From positions 7,530,001 to 7,562,000 of the forward strand of contig NC_010628.1 of NCBI RefSeq assembly GCF_000020025.1: DNA of 32,000 bases, given 5' to 3'. The stretch comes from Nostoc punctiforme PCC 73102. Lineage in GTDB: Bacteria > Cyanobacteriota > Cyanobacteriia > Cyanobacteriales > Nostocaceae. This document shows positions 1 to 7,644 of this stretch, piece after piece. A program made the position numbers and the translations under genes. The first letter of the stretch is position 1. Each line of letters starts with the position of its first letter. The notes under the pieces are model-generated. The model was not told the origin of the DNA, ran no database searches, and saw only the letters and a program-made list of their open reading frames with translations.

Positions 1-985
1 AGAAAGCTTGGCTAATTTGTCCATCGCGTAACTGTACAACTTCACCTACGACTGGAGAATTATCTACTTTTTTCCCAGGTTTTATCGCAGGTTTTAGTGC
101 TTTTTGGCGAATATTTTCAAGTCTAACTTCTATTTCAGTATTTTTATATTTGAGAATGGCTTCACGTTCAAAATTAATGGTTTCGGTTGATAACTTACAT
201 AATGCTTGCAAGGATATCTTCCCTTGAGCGTGTAGAGCTTCTAACCAATTTGATGCTGACTCTAAAATTTGTTTTCCATTTTTTATTTGGATGGTTAATT
301 TATCTTCAATAGCATCGAAGATAACGAAAAGCGATATTTTTCTCCAAAATTTTTGAGTTGGATTTAATACCTTATAAGAAGTAACGATTTTTCCCTCTTC
401 TGGGACATGAAGTGCTAAATCTGAAGCCTGAATACTTTTTTGGATTTCCTCAAGTTTTAAAGAAGAGATATCAGCAATTGCACGATCAATAGTTAAAAAG
501 TCTGCCAAGTCTGGCAAATTGATCGCTGTCTCGCTTAGTGATTCAGCTTGAAAGGTTATTTTGTCACTTAAAGGGTCTGTAATAGCATTAAGCTGTACAG
601 GATATGGGGGCTGTGGTACAGACCCTTTTTCATAAAATGAGCGACCTTCAGAAGTAACTGTAATTGGTGATGTTTCTGATAGAGTTTGTAATGAGCGAAG
701 AGTTGCAGTAGTAGTTTTGATAAATACAGAATCCAGTCCAAGTACAGAGGCTAATTCATCCTCTGTTGGCGGAGGTTGAAATTCAATCGCAGCGCGGATA
801 ATAAATTCTTCGAGTACGTTAAACTGACGGGGCTCTTTGATATTTACTTCTATAGTAGTTTGACGCAAACTATAACGAAATTGACGCGCTGCTAAAACTG
901 ATAAACTAGGACTTTGCGCTTCTATTTCGTCTACAAAATTTTTGAGATTGTCATCAATAGGTTTAGCAGAAGAGGCGAGAAACAT
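1..985 (-). CDS. Partial CDS (N-terminal ~328 aa; continues past the left edge): hypothetical protein, putative partner of the SF1 helicase
   Basis: My translation of the reverse strand from the ATG at 985-983 is open to position 1 (MFLASSAKPIDDNLKNFVDEIEAQSPSLSVLAARQFRYSL...VVQLRDGQISQAF). It is absent from the ORF track because no stop lies in the window. Its first ~16 codons are duplicated at the helicase 3' end (3148-3194). Confidence 0.6.
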   Translation of the reverse strand, partial: MFLASSAKPIDDNLKNFVDEIEAQSPSLSVLAARQFRYSLRQTTIEVNIKEPRQFNVLEEFIIRAAIEFQPPPTEDELASVLGLDSVFIKTTTATLRSLQTLSETSPITVTSEGRSFYEKGSVPQPPYPVQLNAITDPLSDKITFQAESLSETAINLPDLADFLTIDRAIADISSLKLEEIQKSIQASDLALHVPEEGKIVTSYKVLNPTQKFWRKISLFVIFDAIEDKLTIQIKNGKQILESASNWLEALHAQGKISLQALCKLSTETINFEREAILKYKNTEIEVRLENIRQKALKPAIKPGKKVDNSPVVGEVVQLRDGQISQAF

Positions 986-1180
986 CAAGGGAATAAGATT
1001 GGATAATTGAATTTGTACAAATACTTGTAACCCATGAGGCAAAGTACCTTTATGCTTTCAATAAGCTTTGGCGGCGACTAGCCAACCAAGCAAATCCAGC
1101 ACTAGTGACAAATATTAGCACACCATATAATTTTCCCAGGAATGGTCATTGTGGGACTATTCAGCAGCGTAGGGGTAGCA

Positions 1181-1209
1181 GCGATCGCGATGGGAGCATC
1201 CACTTTTGG
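1181..1209. repeat. IS terminal inverted repeat (left)
   Basis: It matches the reverse complement of 2347-2376, with one extra base and one mismatch. Confidence 0.7.
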
Positions 1210-1237
1210 CAGAAACACTCAAATAGCAAGTAAACCA

Positions 1238-2289
1238 TTAAGATAAGCTTAAGCGTTCAGAGAGAATTTGGTTGACACTCTCAACATTCCACTGTGCACC
1301 AGAAATTTTAATCCTGGCTCCAATCTGTTTAATTGCCGACTCGACTGCACCAGAACCGATAGAACAGAGTTCTTCAGCCTGGTAATAGCTGTAGTTGACA
1401 ATACGAGAACGATGTTTGTTGAGATAAGTAATGAAATTTTTCACCTGTTTACCTCGGCAATGAATAAACAAAGCCTGAGTATTATCTATTTGACCTTGCC
1501 ACAAAAAACTTTCAGCAGCTTTAAGCCGTTTTAAAGAACCACCAATTTTATAGAGATTTTCTTTGAGGTGATACCAGTCTAAAATTTCCCAACGCTCAAA
1601 ATTCTCACTTTTACCAAATTCTCTGACAAGATTCCACACACCATCATGACCATCTCCTAAGCAGACTAACGGGTTAACCAGAGGCTGAATATTGACATAA
1701 TCAACTAATGATTGGTTGTCATCAAAAAACGCACCATAGTAAATCCCTTGTAGACGAACGGTTTTATAGTCTCGCCAGTGACAGCCTGCTTTCGGTTTAC
1801 CTCTAAGTCGGACTTTTCCTCCATCTACATTGACTTCTGACACGACTTGTAATGCTACGGGCAGTTGAAAATCTTGTTCGAGAACTAGTTTTTGTTGCGT
1901 CGTGTGACCAACTTTCACTCCTGTTAATGCCTCAATTTCGATTTCTGCTTTTTGGTATGAAACATTTGCTGATAGTCGCAAACAGCACTTTTGAAGTAAT
2001 GGACTTAAACGGCTTCTTGGCTTCAAACCCAGTTTCTGTAACTGTTTGGCTTTTAATTTTAATTCTCCTACCAGGCTTTTGACTTTCCTGGTTTTACCTA
2101 CTTTTGTTTTGGTTGTTTGTTCGATAAAAAAAGGGCTATTTCTGGACCGACATATTCCAATATTTGGCTACGAACTGTTTTTTCTATACCTTCGAGGTCT
2201 ATTAACTGACTCTTATCAGCTTCCGAGTACAGTAATGTTGCCAGTTCTTCTAAGCAGGCTTTGATACGTTCTTGTTTCTCTTGGCTCAT
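1238..2289 (-). pseudogene. DDE transposase (ISKra4-family-like) interrupted by a 1-nt frameshift in a homopolymer
   Basis: The N-terminal ORF (2098-2304; likely ATG at 2289, MSQEKQERIKACLEEL...) and the C-terminal ORF (1238-2026; DGGKVRL, GDGHDGVW, LDWYHLKENLYKIGGS and SGAVES motifs) are parts of one protein. The downstream frame stays open upstream as ...FFIEQTTKTKVGKTRKVKSLVGELKLKAKQLQKLGLKPRSR. The two frames meet at the A7 run at 2126-2132. Confidence 0.7.
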
Positions 2290-2346
2290 AGTCAGCGATC
2301 GCACAGCGTTATTTCCTTCTACATTTTCTCAGAAATGGTAAATCTT

Positions 2347-2376
2347 CCAAAACTGGATGCTCCCGATCGCGATCGC
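2347..2376. repeat. IS terminal inverted repeat (right)
   Basis: Its reverse complement matches 1181-1209. Confidence 0.7.
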
Positions 2377-2462
2377 CAGTGTCGCATTTTGAATTCCTAC
2401 TTCTATTGTAATTGCCGTAATGCGTTTTTCTTCTAATTGGGTTAAAGTAGCGATCGCAAAAC

Positions 2463-2641
2463 CTTAGAGGTTATTTATAAAGTAAAAATAAGATTATTGT
2501 ACGGTGTGCTAGTCCCATATTTCTAGATGATTTGTCACAAAAAATTTTATCAAAGTGGTAACGCACCGCCATGTAATACGGTGCGTAATAGCGAAGCCGT
2601 AACCCGCCTTACTAAGATTTACTTTATAAATAGTCTCTAAG
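2463..2641. mobile_element. MITE-like non-autonomous element (~180 bp)
   Basis: It has 24 bp terminal inverted repeats: CTTAGAGGTTATTTATAAAGTAAA (2463-2486) against TTTACTTTATAAATAGTCTCTAAG (2618-2641), with 2 mismatches. There is an internal hairpin (ACGCACCG...CGGTGCGT) and no coding capacity. Confidence 0.45.
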
Positions 2642-2647
2642 CAGGCT

Positions 2648-2884
2648 TTATGAAATAGGAGTGGTTATATCTTCCTCCAAAGATGCTGGCAATTCAGAAG
2701 AACTAGCGCCACTTTGTGGTGTTGAAAGCTCATCACTTACCATTCCATCCCATGAATAGTTGCAGATTTTAGTGTGAAGCAATTTACCAAACGTCAGGTT
2801 AATTGCTAGGGCAAAAGAATCGATAAAAATTAGATTTACAAAACGATCAATCATTAGACCCCCTTGAGCTAAATTAAGCATCAA
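2648..2884 (-). CDS. Hypothetical 78 aa ORF (possibly a gene fragment)
   Basis: This rests on the ORF track only. I recognise no motif, and the ORF sits in a rearranged stretch between the MITE and the helicase. Confidence 0.15.
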   Translation of the reverse strand: MMLNLAQGGLMIDRFVNLIFIDSFALAINLTFGKLLHTKICNYSWDGMVSDELSTPQSGASSSELPASLEEDITTPIS

Positions 2885-3122
2885 GTGATATTTGATTTCT
2901 TACTACACATGCCATAATCTCTTTTCCAGAAATGTCTGGTATTTTAATAATTTTCAGTTGAAGGGGAAAGGGATAAAGCGATTGTGGATAAGGGAAACAG
3001 GAAAGAAAATATTATTTATCGCTTTAATTTTGAGAAGAAGTAACGCCAAATGAAAAACTTCGTTTTATCAGCATAACTGCTAAAGATGATACATCTGAAG
3101 GGATAAGCTATACCTATACAGG

Positions 3123-3191
3123 CTAATATGCCCAGTAGATATCCTTCTTGAGATTGTCATTAATAGGTTTAACTGAAAAGGCGAGAGACAT
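3123..3191 (-). pseudogene. 22-codon relic of the partner-gene 5' end, overlapping the helicase stop
   Basis: It reads ATG TCT CTC GCC TTT TCA GTT AAA CCT ATT AAT GAC AAT CTC AAG AAG... = [22 protein letters not shown]. This parallels MFLASSAKPIDDNLKN at the start of the CDS ending at 985. At the DNA level, 3148-3194 and 942-988 are 42/47 identical by hand alignment. Confidence 0.45.
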
Positions 3192-6100
3192 CAACGAAAC
3201 CTTCATGTGTACTGACAATATTTGAAACTTCTGAATACATACTTCCGACTTTACCTGATTGATGGGTAAACAATTTATGACAACCCACAATTATCAGCAG
3301 TTCTTGGGCGCGAGAAAATGCAACATTTACCCGTTCTGGCTTTTTAGCAAAACCCACATCTCCTTTGCTATTATTGCGAACCATACTTACAATTACAACA
3401 GGTCGCTCCATACCTTGAAATCTGTCTACAGTACCAGTACGAATCTCTAATGAAGGGAAAAGTTCAGATTGTAGGCGTTCATCAATTTTTCTTAATTGAG
3501 CGCCATAAAACGTAATTACGGCAATTTCTTTTTTTGGTTCAGCATTAGCAACTTTAGAAGCCCAAGTCGTCTCAAACTGTTGACATAGAAGTTCAATCGC
3601 ATCAATTTCTGGAGTATTAAAGTAAGAAGTTCCGTTTCTTTGCTCTAAAAACTGATTTTCGATAGGCGTTTTTACCCAAATAAGATGCTGAGATTCTTGG
3701 ATAATTTCGCCTGCTAAATGATGTGCGCGTTTTGTGTCCGGCTCCAAAATGCCAGATTCTAGTTTACCGTCATAAAACTGATTGATTGCACCCATAATAA
3801 ATGGGTGCATTCGATATTGTGTAGTTAGCATTTGTTTGATGCTTTCATCAGCAGATTCAAACTGACTTTTAAATAGTGATTCTTCTAAAAATTGTAGTTC
3901 GTCTCGTGTATTGCCAATTGTCTGAGCAACTTCTTCTAAAGTGCTAGTGTCAAGCATGGGTGGTAATTGCCGATGATCGCCTACCATGACTAACTTTTTA
4001 CCTTTTAAAGCAGGGATTAGTAACTCTGGTGGAGTACACTTACTAACCTCATCAATAATGACAACATCAAAGGATTTGAATTCTTCCGAAAAACCTCTAC
4101 TTGCAGCTTGAACGCAGGTGATACCAACGACGTTAGCATTATCTAAATATATGCGCCTTAAATCGTCGCGATCGCGCTCATTTGGCTGTCTTAATTTTCC
4201 AATCCAATCTTGGACAAAATTCTGATATTTTTTGAGATAATTTTCTTCTTTTTCGAGTTCCTTCTGCCAAGATTCAAACTGAATATTGATACCGCGCAAT
4301 AACTCTATATTAAACAAGTCAGCAGGATAATTTTCTGGCTTAAACTTATCCGGGGTTCTTTGCCATTCTGTCAACCACCAGTTTCTTTCTTCTATTAATC
4401 TATCTGATGGCTGTGGTTGTAACTTTTCTTCTATTTCACGTAAGCTAATTTGTAATTTTTGAAGTTGCTGTAGAGCAGTTTCAGTTTCTTCTTGTAGTTT
4501 TGATAAATGCTCGTGTAGAGAATTTTTAATTATCTCTAATACCGCAAAAGGTTCTAAGGATGAAATTAAATTTTCAAGCTGACTAATGGAAGTTACCCAA
4601 GAATTCACTTGATTTGAGAATTCTTGTGGATGCTCCCAAATATTTGATTGTGTCGCAAGATATTTCTCCGTTAAAGTGCGTAATTGAGTAGGTATATTTT
4701 GTTGATTAAGTTCTTGCAAGATATTAATAACTCTGCCAAGTTGTAAATTAGCGTCTTGTTGCGCTTTTTCTACCTCAGCTTGAGTAATAGATATTTGCTG
4801 TTGGCTAATTTCATTTTTCTGAAGTTCATTTAATTGTCTTTGTAAATACTGAAGCTGTTGTTCAGTTTCGGTTTTGACTTTTAAAACGCATTGACGTGCA
4901 TTTACAAGAATAGTATCTAACAATTCTTGGGTAAGTTTGGTGAGAGTAGAATCGATATTATTCCATTCCCATGATGCGCCATAAGTCCGTTGCATTCTAA
5001 TTAAAAAAACTTGGGTATTTTCGACCAGTAATTTTCGCTGTTTGGGATTGAGTAGCTGATAATTGCTAAACTGTTGATAGGTTTCTTGCCATTGGGTGCG
5101 ATCGCCCTTTGATAGCACCATTGGAATCTGACTAAAATTTTCTTGCAAGAAATAGCTGAAATTATGCTGTTTTCCCCGTCTATCAGTAAAACCTCCGTCT
5201 ATTTCATAAGCGATCGCTTTTGTCAATAGCTCCCATTCTGGCAAATTAATTTTGTAAATTTTTGGTACTATTGCTAATTTTAATGTATTAGCAAACATCA
5301 ATAAACCTAGTGGTAAGTCCACTAAATTTTCTGTTAGTGGTAAACCTGATTGCTGACAATCTTTTAAAGTTTGATAAAGATGAGAAGGTGCTGTAGACTT
5401 CCATTCTTTTACTGCTGAGATAATATAATCAATTTCACGTTGCCGATTTTCCCAAATCTGGATTGTTTGCTGTAGTTTTTGCAGTTTAGCAAGATATTTC
5501 TGATAATCTGGTTGTACTTGATTTAATAATGCAAAATTCTGTTTGACAACCTCAACTGATGCTGCAACTTCTAAGATGGCTTGACTAGCCTCTTGAGCAG
5601 AAGTAAAAGCAGATTTAAATCCAGAAATTTCTGTTGCTACAGTTTCACGCAACCAAACCGCTAAACCAAAAGCGCCAAGTGCCGGACGCGCCAAGCCAAG
5701 TTCATCAGTATATTTGATGGTTTGACGAACATTTGCTAAAAATTCTTCTACTAAACTATTACCTTCTGTGTATGGTTTCAGAAGTGGCAAAAAATCTGTA
5801 ACTTCTGGAGATTCCCAATTTATAGGTGCAGTGTTTAGTATATTTTCTAGACCTGCAATTAGAGATTCAACATTGTTTTGTTTTTCTACGGTTTCATTGT
5901 AAGATTTTTCTTGATTTTTAAAGTTTGTCTCTACTTTTAACTTATTTTTATTAAATTTTGTTTGCTGCTGGCTAAATTCTTCCTCTGCTTGTAAGTAGGG
6001 TGTAAATCTTTGTGATGATGCCAGTAATTGACTGAAAATTTTGATATTTTCGAGACGTTGTGTAATATTATTTTCGCAGTCATAAGCTGTATTTTCTAGC

Positions 6101-7644
6101 CATCTGCCAATCACTTGGTCTTCTAAAAATGGCTGTCCTTCTTCCCCAACTTTTTCGGCTCGACCCTTGCGTACTGCCCGAATTACTGAGTTGTGAACTA
6201 ATCTACTCAGGGCGTTATCTACTGCTAAATTGGCTTGTGAAGCGATTAAGGTACGCCCACCTCGAAGGGCAATTTGATAGCAAATTTCAGCAATTACAGT
6301 AGTTTTCCCAGTACCTGGTGGCCCTTGGATGAGAACAAGATCCTTGGCGGCAAGTACCTTTTCTACTGCAGCTTTTTGTCCAGGATTAGCGGAAGATAAT
6401 AATAAATCTTGTGGTTGAAGTTCAACAGTTGTTTTGATTTGTCTAGCCTGAGAAGCATCGAATAAAAAGTTACCTAAATAAGGATTCTGGGTGTAACCAT
6501 TATTCAAATCATCTAACGCTTTCTTCTTACGCTGAATCTGCTGAATATCTCCAACTGCCTCGAAACATAAGAATCCGGTAGCTGGTAATTTATAGCGCTC
6601 TGTTGCCATGAATTCAGCTAAGTCGCGTTCTAGCCGGAGGCTGATAATACAACGGTTGGTATCAACTTCTTCAACAGTTCCTAATTGACGACCGCTAATC
6701 CAATTTTTCCCGACAGGAGCAGTTTCAAAAAGTTTTAAATCTTCGTTTTTTGTGCGTCTTGCTCGTTCCCAAAAATTATCTACTTCGAGGGAATTTTGAT
6801 AAAAACCGTCAAGGGTGGCTGAGTTTACATCAATTTCAAAACTAATCCGCCTTTTGAAGTTATAGTTATGGCTTACGTAACGCACACAAAATTGACGTGC
6901 TTTAGCAATTTTTTCCTCAATTTGCAAAAACGCTTTCCAAGCTTTCAGCTGATCTTCTGTAGGTACATTTTCGCCACAAACTGGCGCGGTGGCGATGCGC
7001 TTCAATGTCGCTGGCGGAATATCGAGATGATGCTGATGATTAGCCAGTAAACGCAAGCGACAAGGCATAGCGTAGCTGTCGGCGTGTCCGCGTGAGGGTT
7101 GTAGCAACTGAGCCGACAGTACTTTTATACCGTCGCGTCCATCTTTTTGTACAGCTGCTCTAAATCCTAATGTTTTTCTGAGCTTCTCAAGTCTTGCAGG
7201 CAATGGAAAATCATCGGAGTCTGTCGCTATTGTCAAATCCCAAATTTCCTCTCTTGCTTCTTTCCCTGCACCCTTGCGACGCACATAAAATAAAGAAGGC
7301 TTTTTGCCGACACATTCATACATTAACTCATTGGCGCGATCGCGCCGCTCCCTAAAATCGGAATATGATTTCAAGGCAGCCTCACCTTCAAGATGGCGGA
7401 TAAAACTATCAATTGCTGAAGCTATAAACGTATAGCCCCAATCTTCAGAGGTTGTTTTAGTTTTTGACGATTTTGCTGTTAGTTTACTTATCGCTAAACG
7501 AATACGTTCTGCATCGGATTCTGGTATTGCACTGGTATGGCTTTTGACTGCAATCTTGAGCTTTTCACAAATTGCTAATAGCTTCTTGCTATCTAAATTT
7601 AATTCTTTTGCTAGTTCGTAGATTCTGAGTTTACCGTTGTTCAT
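3169..7644 (-). CDS. IF2_N-domain-containing Upf1-like superfamily 1 helicase (AAA_11/AAA_12 type) with a very long coiled-coil insertion
   Basis: The 1506 aa ORF has a TTG start; the likely ATG start is M16 (7644), [49 protein letters not shown], which is an IF-2 N-terminal-type domain. SF1 motifs seen are [12 protein letters not shown] (I, ~6300-6330), [11 protein letters not shown] (Ia), VVIIDEVSK (II, ~4045-4075), GDHRQLPP (III), TTQYRMHP (IV), [16 protein letters not shown] (V) and VNVAFSRAQ (VI). Motifs I and II are ~750 aa apart, separated by Q/E/L/K-rich heptad-like sequence. Confidence 0.9.

What the first reader, a model, noticed from the sequence alone, without database searches (positions are those of the whole stretch)
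1..985. Helicase partner gene: unknown wHTH-like N-terminal region, effector domain possibly beyond the window edge
The open frame running off the left edge (328 codons seen) starts with the peptide whose relic overlaps the helicase stop, so it is the helicase's cognate downstream gene. The visible part has no catalytic motif I recognise. Segments such as EEFIIRAAIEFQPPPTEDELASVLGLDSVFIKTTTATLRSL look like winged-helix units. The last visible residues (VVQLRDGQISQAF) resemble the entry into PLD-type nuclease domains in other proteins, but that is a guess. If a PLD or other nuclease follows, the pair would be a divergent Mokosh type I; if not, the effector is new.
Basis: inference. Interest (0 to 1): 0.65.

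Follow-up and report, generated by a model that had tools for sequence, protein, structure and literature searches.

The report
Front half of Mokosh nuclease MkoB
The open frame at the left edge is the first 328 codons of MkoB, the nuclease subunit of a known two-gene anti-phage system (Mokosh type I) in a Nostoc cyanobacterium; its catalytic domain starts at the window edge, so this is an ordinary member of a known family.

Summary
Window 985..2 (- strand) is a 328-codon frame, open at the left edge. It is under purifying selection (dN/dS 0.17-0.28) and has hundreds of Nostocales homologues.

Orthologues 91-94% identical (Nostoc LEGE 12447, NMS2, P8256) continue for about 285 more residues. 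They run through a PLD domain with an intact HxK(x)4D(x)6GSxN motif, which starts 87 residues past the window edge. These orthologues match the PADLOC MkoB model at E 6e-28 to 9e-31. The upstream 1491-aa helicase matches MkoA at E 5e-114.

The "unknown" N-terminal region is the normal MkoB N-terminal module: 40 of 49 N-module-only relatives hit the MkoB model. The AlphaFold model (pLDDT 82) shows one winged helix (residues ~55-125) followed by a beta-rich domain with no PDB match.

Local peculiarities:
- The two genes are uncoupled by a 964-bp spacer plus a 1172-bp ISKra4 insertion.
- A 50-bp relic of the mkoB start overlaps the helicase stop.
- The helicase has no kinase domain and carries an IF2_N domain instead.
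- Related genomes often carry a second, paralogous helicase, or PLD-less or PLD-dead partners.

Whether the PLD domain is intact in this strain cannot be seen. Verdict: a new member of a known kind, of low to moderate interest.

The parts
2..985 (-). mkoB, first 328 codons (ATG at 985). The ORF runs off the left edge. By homology, about 285 codons are missing.
   Evidence: ORF; homologues; dN/dS 0.17-0.28; MkoB model hits in orthologues.
611..823 (-). Winged helix-turn-helix, residues ~55-125 of MkoB.
   Evidence: AF2 model with pLDDT >90 here. Foldseek matches MarR/DtxR/CggR wHTH domains over 65-75 columns at rmsd ~2 A, probability ~1 but E 0.1-0.5. 15 of 49 relatives hit the PADLOC WH_III-A model.
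89..610 (-). Beta-rich domain plus helical bundle (residues ~126-299). Fold without a PDB match.
41..88 (-). Predicted disordered, poorly conserved linker (residues ~300-315).
   Evidence: pLDDT about 30. Variable and gapped columns in alignment A1.
2..40 (-). Entry into the PLD domain (VVQLRDGQISQAF): first beta strand and start of the first helix.
   Evidence: P0004 model has strand 316-319 and helix 321-333. Pfam PLDc_2 and PADLOC MkoC/DrmC matches begin at residues ~312-333 in full-length homologues. The motif HIKEIIVDQEIHLCGSHN is at residue 415 in L012.
986..1191 (-). Proximal part of the spacer ('block B') directly upstream of the mkoB start. It includes one copy of the 10-bp target duplication (1182-1191).
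   Evidence: Block B lies upstream of the second helicase H2 in two-helicase genomes.
1192..2363 (-). ISKra4-family insertion sequence (1172 bp). It has imperfect terminal inverted repeats GGGAGCATCCA[G/C]TTTTGG and a 10-bp direct repeat ATCGCGATCG at 1182-1191 and 2364-2373. The transposase is split into two ORFs, 2304-2098 and 2026-1238.
   Evidence: Empty site in L005, L012 and L013. NCBIfam ISKra4 at E 8e-69. Copies on Nostoc plasmids at 82-95% identity. Sequence read.
2364..3144 (-). Distal part of the spacer (block A and the start of block B) between the relic and the IS. It is conserved at 86-93% in the nearest relatives.
3145..3194 (-). Relic of an mkoB start, overlapping the helicase stop codon (3171-3169).
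   Evidence: 44 of 50 bases identical to 988..939.
3169..7644 (-). mkoA: 1491-aa Upf1-like SF1 helicase. It has IF2_N at residues 4-50, the Walker A region at about 420-475, a ~550-aa insertion, and then AAA_11/AAA_12. It has no kinase domain.
   Evidence: MkoA E 5e-114; exact protein in 29 collection blocks; Upf1, IGHMBP2, Sen1 at E 1e-36.

Best explanation
Window 985..2 (-) is the 5' 54% of mkoB, the PLD-family nuclease gene of a type I Mokosh anti-phage system. Its helicase partner mkoA is window 7644..3169 (-).

Shown here:
- The frame is a constrained gene.
- Its full-length orthologues are ~610-aa proteins with this layout: N-terminal wHTH, beta-rich domain, helical bundle, flexible linker, single-HKD PLD domain, C-terminal helices.
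- They match the MkoB profile.
- They sit directly downstream of, and usually overlap by 16-19 nt, a Upf1-like AAA_11/AAA_12 helicase. This holds in Nostocales, in Clostridium next to BREX genes, and in metagenomes.

Inferred by homology: this strain's protein continues for ~285 residues past the edge, with the catalytic HxK(x)4D(x)6GSxN about 87 residues beyond it.

Inferred from what is published on the family (Millman et al. 2022 preprint): defence needs both the helicase ATP site and the PLD active site. [quoted passage not shown]

My own inference:
- Like other single-HKD nucleases (Nuc, NucT, Zucchini), MkoB probably dimerises to form one active site.
- The wHTH/beta module binds nucleic acid or docks the nuclease onto MkoA.

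In this strain the pair has lost its translational coupling. A 964-bp spacer and a recent 1172-bp ISKra4 insertion, 196 bp upstream of the ATG, separate the genes. mkoB must therefore be expressed from its own upstream block or from the IS, if it is expressed at all.
For: - ORF and peptides.
- Purifying selection.
- Long homologues with PLDc_2 and the HKD motif.
- 76 of 80 Nostoc loci are full length and 71 of 80 have the strict motif; the nearest three (91-94% identity) are intact at 612-617 aa.
- PADLOC MkoB at E 6e-28 to 9e-31 for the nearest orthologues and 1e-25 to 1e-37 for other long forms.
- 40 of 49 N-module-only proteins hit MkoB.
- A second MkoB model (PDLC03923) hits the wHTH region of distant members.
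- Helicase matches MkoA at E 5e-114 and Upf1/IGHMBP2 at 1e-36.
- PLD fold of the C-terminal half (PLD3, NucT with TM 0.64 on the target, Zucchini).
- wHTH.
- Co-occurrence with the helicase outside cyanobacteria.
- The N-module profile finds only 160 representative clusters among 1.84 billion proteins. They are mostly 550-690 aa, and 8 of the 10 sampled are MkoB-positive.
Against: - The PLD domain of this strain is outside the window and could not be recovered.
- The window fragment on its own hits no MkoB, Pfam or NCBIfam model.
- Relatives show that the PLD can be lost or inactivated: an in-frame stop right at the PLD entry in L006/L007, PLD-less 277-286-aa forms, and H->Y or K->R substitutions.
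- MkoA lacks the Ser/Thr-kinase domain described for type I Mokosh.
- The genes are 2.2 kb apart with an IS between them.
- The locus is syntenic across Nostocales among housekeeping genes rather than in a defence island.
- No anti-phage activity has been shown for any cyanobacterial member.
Confidence: 0.82

Rival explanations
1. In this strain the gene is a PLD-less or PLD-dead derivative, through a stop, frameshift or catalytic substitution just beyond the edge. The visible N-terminal module would then act without nuclease activity, for example as a nucleic-acid-binding accessory or regulator of the helicase.
For: L006/L007 have an in-frame stop immediately after QLRDGQISQTFS, one residue past the window's last codon. 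PLD-less forms of 277-286 aa are common in other Nostocales and still overlap the helicase. Their N-module is constrained, with dN/dS 0.16-0.35. Catalytic H->Y and K->R variants exist. The operon here is already disrupted by an IS.
Against: The three closest orthologues (91-94% aa identity, same spacer) are all intact with a canonical motif. 76 of 80 Nostoc loci are full length. The 94%-identical contig L005 carries PLD coding sequence beyond the point that corresponds to the window edge.
Confidence: 0.12
2. The helicase/partner pair is not primarily an anti-phage system in Nostocales. It is a vertically inherited RNA-surveillance or RNA-processing module: a Upf1-like helicase with an IF2_N domain, working with a nucleic-acid-binding partner. 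The PLD would be an optional nuclease.
For: Conserved synteny (MS channel, histone-deacetylase-like gene, helicase, partner) holds in Nostoc, Anabaena and Okeanomitos. The neighbours are housekeeping-type genes. IF2_N sits on the helicase. The PLD has been lost repeatedly while the helicase and N-module are retained under constraint.
Against: Profile matches to MkoA and MkoB are strong. The Clostridium homologue pair sits next to BREX genes. The locus is highly plastic, with helicase duplication, Uma2, HTH_3 and IS insertions, and nonsense mutations, which is typical of defence loci. No functional data exist either way.
Confidence: 0.05
3. It is a stand-alone winged-helix transcription factor, functionally unrelated to the helicase and lying near it by chance.
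For: Foldseek matches are to MarR/DtxR-type regulators. A 2.2-kb gap separates it from the helicase in this window. One source names a homologue 'DNA-binding protein'.
Against: Homologues overlap the helicase stop by 16-19 nt in dozens of genomes and in other phyla. Full-length forms carry a PLD domain. A relic of the gene's start overlaps this helicase's stop.
Confidence: 0.01

Closest known systems
Mokosh type I (MkoA + MkoB; Millman et al. 2022, preprint 10.1101/2022.05.11.491447)
   Same: It is a two-gene system on one strand: a Upf1-like COG1112/AAA_11-AAA_12 helicase followed by a PLD-family protein. PADLOC MkoA scores E 5e-114. Full-length orthologues score MkoB at E ~1e-28 to 1e-37, with the alignment covering the N-terminal module as well as the PLD.
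   Different: The helicase has no Ser/Thr-kinase domain; it carries IF2_N and a ~550-aa insertion. Only the C-terminal core of the MkoA models is matched. The genes are uncoupled here by a spacer and an IS. The locus is chromosomal and syntenic across Nostocales. The window fragment itself falls below the MkoB model threshold.
Mokosh type II (MkoC; E. coli YjhR-type fusion)
   Same: It has the same two activities. The PLD part of the orthologues matches the C-terminal ~140 positions of the MkoC model at E 1e-9 to 1e-13, and the helicase matches MkoC at 6e-35.
   Different: Here the helicase and the PLD are separate genes, and the PLD protein has its own ~300-aa wHTH/beta N-terminal module.
Animal piRNA biogenesis pair MOV10L1/Armitage + Zucchini/PLD6
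   Same: It pairs a Upf1-like helicase with a single-HKD PLD nuclease. Zucchini is among the Foldseek matches of the PLD half (TM 0.49 on the target). The relationship was proposed in preprint 10.1101/2022.12.12.520048.
   Different: Similarity is at domain level only. There is no wHTH module in Zucchini, no membrane anchor here, and no evidence of small-RNA production.
Archaeal TrmB/TrmBL2 regulators
   Same: These are the best Foldseek matches of the full-length model (E 6.5e-5, 200-246 columns). Both have an N-terminal wHTH followed by a PLD-like fold. From memory, the TrmB C-terminal domain belongs to the PLD clan.
   Different: No sequence or Pfam match to TrmB families was found. The rmsd is high (11-17 A), so the domain arrangement differs. 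TrmB proteins lack the HKD catalytic motif, which is intact here in orthologues.
Single-HKD bacterial nucleases NucT/Nuc and DISARM DrmC
   Same: The PLD fold and the HxK(x)4D(x)6GSxN motif are shared. NucT has TM 0.64 on the target. There are weak DrmC and NucT profile hits.
   Different: Those proteins are small (150-240 aa) and lack the N-terminal module. No DISARM genes are present nearby.

Membership tests
Mokosh type I | MkoA: Upf1-like SF1 helicase (COG1112; AAA_11 + AAA_12) with a Walker A motif | tested here: met
   Pfam AAA_12 at 1e-47 and AAA_11 at 2e-43. PADLOC MkoA at 5e-114 and 1e-108. PDB Upf1 and IGHMBP2 at ~1e-36.
Mokosh type I | The MkoA gene additionally carries a Ser/Thr-kinase domain (as described by Millman et al.) | tested here: not met
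   No Pkinase hit was found in the whole protein, or in residues 1-430 at E<=5. Only IF2_N was found. Current HMM-based detection may not require this feature.
Mokosh type I | MkoB: PLD-family domain with the catalytic HxK(x)4D motif, in this window's protein | not testable with these tools
   The motif would lie ~87 codons beyond the window edge. The strain's own sequence was not found.
Mokosh type I | MkoB: PLD domain with an intact motif in the orthologues of this gene | tested here: met
   71 of 80 Nostoc loci have the strict HxK(x)4D(x)6GSxN. L012, L013 and L014 (91-94% identity) are intact. PLDc_2 hits. PLD fold.
Mokosh type I | Match to the MkoB profile (PADLOC PDLC03922) | tested here: inconclusive
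   The window fragment alone gives no hit, even at E<=10. Full-length orthologues score 6e-28 to 9e-31. 40 of 49 N-module-only relatives hit, with a best E of 3.9e-11.
Mokosh type I | The two genes are adjacent on the same strand | tested here: met
   Both genes are on the - strand with the helicase upstream. The gap is 2183 bp, of which 1172 bp is an IS. In 30+ relatives the genes overlap by 16-19 nt.
Mokosh type I | Protects against phage, dependent on the ATPase and the PLD | not testable with these tools
   Requires an experiment.
Mokosh type II (MkoC) | Helicase and PLD fused in one polypeptide | tested here: not met
   The ORFs are separate, with a helicase stop at 3171-3169.
TrmB family regulators | TrmB-type HTH and Regulator_TrmB domain detectable by sequence | tested here: not met
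   No Pfam hit was found in the window fragment or in long homologues. The only resemblance is at fold level.
DISARM (DrmC) | A DrmC PLD protein together with DrmA/DrmB and a methylase | tested here: not met
   Only weak DrmC hits were found (E 1e-2 to 9e-7), far below the MkoB scores. NCBIfam DrmC scored 18 bits against a cut-off of 133. No DISARM genes lie in the neighbourhood.

The most novel reading that the evidence does not exclude
In Nostocales this Mokosh-like pair may be a vertically inherited, near-core locus whose essential unit is the IF2_N-bearing Upf1-like helicase plus the wHTH/beta N-terminal module of the partner. The PLD nuclease would be dispensable: it has been repeatedly deleted, truncated or catalytically killed, while the N-module stays under purifying selection and stays translationally coupled to the helicase. 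That would point to a nuclease-independent activity of the MkoA-MkoB(N) complex, for example translation- or RNA-linked sensing or blocking. The window's gene would be one snapshot of that process.
Probability: 0.1. Interest if true: 0.6.

Novelty: new member of a known kind. Interest (0 to 1): 0.3.

Why it matters
This settles an apparent "unknown effector" as a known one. The gene is mkoB, and the unseen effector is almost certainly the standard PLD nuclease.

The modest added value lies in three points:
- The ~300-aa wHTH/beta module is a conserved, defining part of MkoB with no solved structure. Type I Mokosh has not been purified, so its mechanism is still open.
- Cyanobacterial MkoA is a kinase-less, IF2_N-bearing variant.
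- The Nostocales locus offers a natural series of intact, PLD-dead and PLD-less pairs, and of one- and two-helicase arrangements. This series could be used to ask what the N-terminal module does on its own.

Tried and rejected
- **Recovering the sequence left of the window.** An exact look-up of the helicase found only short-read contigs that stop inside the IS. The genome-contig scan found no 100% match; the best was 94%. A 49-nt exact scan of metagenome contigs found nothing.
- **Direct annotation of the 328-aa fragment.** There were no hits in Pfam, in PADLOC (also at E<=10) or in NCBIfam.
- **PDB searches.** A family-profile sequence search returned only noise. Foldseek of the N-terminal model found nothing beyond the ~70-residue wHTH.
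- **"Several winged-helix units".** Only one is supported.
- **"The effector is new".** Rejected, because orthologues carry a canonical PLD.
- **A simple target-site duplication as the origin of the relic.** Rejected. The two copies differ at 6 of 50 positions. The relic-plus-spacer arrangement is shared with L005 and L012-L014, which lack the IS. The IS has its own 10-bp duplication.
- **Helicase H2 remnants in the spacer.** blastx found none, and there is no second helicase in the window.
- **Promoter and terminator scan of the spacer.** Counts were at or below shuffle expectation, so it was uninformative.
- **DISARM DrmC and TrmB membership.** Both rejected (see the membership tests).

Full report
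**Observation**

On the minus strand an ATG at 985, preceded in frame by a TTG at 988, opens a frame that runs 328 codons to position 2 with no stop.

The frame is a real gene:
- It has 382 database homologues at E<=1e-3.
- Its dN/dS against the three nearest orthologues is 0.17-0.28.

On its own the fragment matches nothing in Pfam, PADLOC or NCBIfam.

**Surroundings in the window**

Upstream on the same strand lies a 1491-aa protein (7644..3169). It has:
- an IF2_N domain at residues 4-50;
- a Walker A region near residue 435;
- a ~550-residue insertion;
- AAA_11 and AAA_12 domains.

It matches the PADLOC MkoA models at E 5e-114 and 1e-108. It matches Upf1, IGHMBP2 and Sen1 structures at about 1e-36. 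No kinase domain is detectable.

The helicase stop codon is overlapped by a 50-bp relic (3194..3145) that is 88% identical to the start of the partner gene (988..939). The relic reads [15 protein letters not shown] and then terminates.

Between the relic and the partner ATG lie two elements:
- A 964-bp spacer.
- A 1172-bp ISKra4-family insertion sequence (1192..2363). It has inverted repeats and a 10-bp duplication, ATCGCGATCG. The empty site is seen in L005, L012 and L013.

**What follows the window edge**

I could not recover this strain's own sequence. Exact-protein look-up of the helicase returned only contigs that break in the IS. The species-representative genome scan had a best match of 94%. 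An exact 49-mer scan of metagenomes found nothing.

Homology is nevertheless clear:
- Long homologues (P0004, P0008, P0050, P0070 and others) continue from QLRDGQI... into a PLDc_2 domain carrying HxK(x)4D(x)6GSxN.
- Among the 80 closest Nostoc genome loci, 76 have a 587-625-aa ORF, and 71 have the strict motif.
- The three nearest are all intact at 612-617 aa: Nostoc sp. LEGE 12447 (94%), NMS2 (93%) and P8256 (91%). They share the window's spacer architecture. In L012 the motif is HIKEIIVDQEIHLCGSHN at residue 415, which is 87 residues past the window's last codon.
- The 94%-identical but error-rich contig L005 also carries PLD coding sequence beyond the corresponding point.

**Identity**

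The full-length orthologues match PADLOC MkoB (PDLC03922) at E 6e-28 to 9e-31. The alignment runs from residue 43 to about 440-480, so it covers the N-terminal module as well as the PLD. Other long forms score 1e-25 to 1e-37.

The N-terminal module alone is recognised as MkoB:
- 40 of 49 N-module-only proteins hit the model, with a best E of 3.9e-11.
- A second MkoB model (PDLC03923) hits the wHTH region of distant members.

A profile of the N-module, searched against 1.84 billion representative proteins, finds only 160 clusters. They are mostly 550-690 aa with the module at the N-terminus, and 8 of 10 sampled are MkoB-positive.

Distant members also lie directly downstream of an AAA_11/AAA_12 helicase. 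In Clostridium tarantellae the pair sits next to BREX PglZ/BrxL. The same arrangement is seen in a metagenome contig.

The pair is therefore Mokosh type I. That system is described as a COG1112 helicase plus a PLD nuclease, both of whose active sites are needed for defence.

**Structure**

AlphaFold2 on the window fragment with 49 sequences gives pLDDT 82. The predicted layout is:
- a helix and a long beta hairpin (residues 12-50);
- a winged helix (55-125);
- a beta-rich domain (128-236);
- a helical bundle (242-297);
- a disordered linker (300-315).

Foldseek against the PDB matches only the wHTH, to MarR, DtxR and CggR domains. These matches span 65-75 columns at rmsd ~2 A, with E 0.1-0.5. 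The rest has no structural match.

The model of the 84%-identical P0004 (pLDDT 81.6) shows that the window's last residues form the first strand and helix of the PLD domain. Its Foldseek matches are TrmBL2/TrmB (wHTH plus PLD-like architecture), PLD3, NucT (TM 0.64 on the target), PLD1/2 and Zucchini. No solved structure is related by sequence.

**How it most likely works**

[quoted passage not shown] Type I Mokosh has resisted purification, so its mechanism is open.

My inference:
- MkoA senses or unwinds.
- MkoB, probably as a dimer that builds one HKD site as in Nuc and Zucchini, cleaves.
- The wHTH/beta module binds nucleic acid or docks MkoB on MkoA.

In this strain the usual 16-19-nt overlap, and so the translational coupling, is gone. 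An IS sits 196 bp upstream of the ATG, so expression of mkoB is uncertain.

**Locus history**

The locus is syntenic across Nostoc, Anabaena and Okeanomitos: MS channel, histone-deacetylase-like gene, helicase, partner.

Two helicase paralogues occur:
- H1 is the window type, at 88-96% identity.
- H2 is 54-64% identical.

About 20 of the 80 loci carry H1 followed by H2, with H2 overlapping the partner. In L011, L040, L042 and L065, H1 itself overlaps the partner.

The proximal spacer block of the window lies upstream of H2 in two-helicase genomes, and directly upstream of the partner in window-type genomes. The relic and spacer therefore reflect older rearrangement of a duplicated or expanded locus, not the recent IS event. 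'Cognate' is a reasonable description, but it is not a simple one-to-one relation.

**Erosion of the PLD elsewhere**

Several relatives have lost or inactivated the PLD:
- L006/L007 have an in-frame stop immediately after QLRDGQISQTFS.
- L082 and L087 have H->Y. L032 has K->R. L058 and L070 alter GSxN.
- Many Nostocales have 277-286-aa PLD-less forms that still overlap the helicase. Their N-module is constrained, with dN/dS 0.16-0.35.

This keeps open a small probability that this strain's copy is also defective. It also supports a speculative PLD-independent role for the N-module.

**Verdict**

The 'new effector' alternative is rejected. This is a new member of a known kind with some variant features: a kinase-less, IF2_N-bearing MkoA, uncoupled genes, and an IS insertion. 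Interest is low to moderate.

Noticed in passing
window 1192-2363: This is an ISKra4-family insertion sequence of 1172 bp. It has 18-bp imperfect inverted repeats and a 10-bp direct repeat, ATCGCGATCG, that contains a HIP1 site. It is inserted 196 bp upstream of the mkoB ATG. The transposase is split into two ORFs (2304-2098 and 2026-1238). Copies at 82-95% identity occur on Nostoc plasmids.
   Followed up: yes
L006, L015, L035, L052, L075, L078 and others (about 20 of 80 Nostoc loci): These loci carry two paralogous MkoA-type helicases in tandem (H1 and H2, 54-64% aa identity). Uma2 or other small genes sometimes lie between them. Only the downstream helicase overlaps mkoB. L048 shows three helicase ends.
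   Followed up: partly
L008 8001-8861; L092 8001-8843; L093 5891-6724; L083, L084, L089, L090: These are PLD-less partner proteins (277-319 aa). In L092 and L093 they still overlap the helicase, and no PLD remnant is detectable. The N-module is under purifying selection (dN/dS 0.16-0.35), which suggests a nuclease-independent role.
   Followed up: partly
L006 10988-10990 (also L007); L032, L058, L070, L082, L087 near residue 415: An in-frame stop lies exactly at the PLD entry in L006/L007. In the other loci the ORFs are full length but carry catalytic-motif substitutions: H->Y, K->R, G->V or N->H.
   Followed up: partly
window 7495-7635 (helicase residues 4-50) and about 4500-6200: MkoA starts with an IF2_N domain (Pfam E 1.5e-9; it also matches IF2 structures). 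It has a ~550-residue insertion, probably helical, between Walker A and the rest of the AAA_11 domain. There is no Ser/Thr kinase domain, unlike the published type I description.
   Followed up: partly
window 2374-3144 and 989-1181 (spacer): The spacer consists of two noncoding blocks conserved at 82-93% across many Nostoc genomes. Block A follows the H1 stop. Block B precedes H2 in some genomes and mkoB in others. Their function (promoter, sRNA or other) was not examined beyond an uninformative consensus scan.
   Followed up: partly
model m25c16dce179c (P0004): The best PDB fold matches of full-length MkoB are the archaeal chromatin protein and regulator TrmBL2/TrmB, which also combine a wHTH with a PLD-like domain.
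   Followed up: no
L008 7567-7875: In Nostoc sp. DSM 114161 an HTH_3 (Xre-type) gene lies between the helicase and the PLD-less partner.
   Followed up: no
P0150 (1212 aa): This is a distant MkoB-like protein fused to a C-terminal region that hits a HEAT/ARM repeat model (PADLOC HEAT-ARM_XIII).
   Followed up: no
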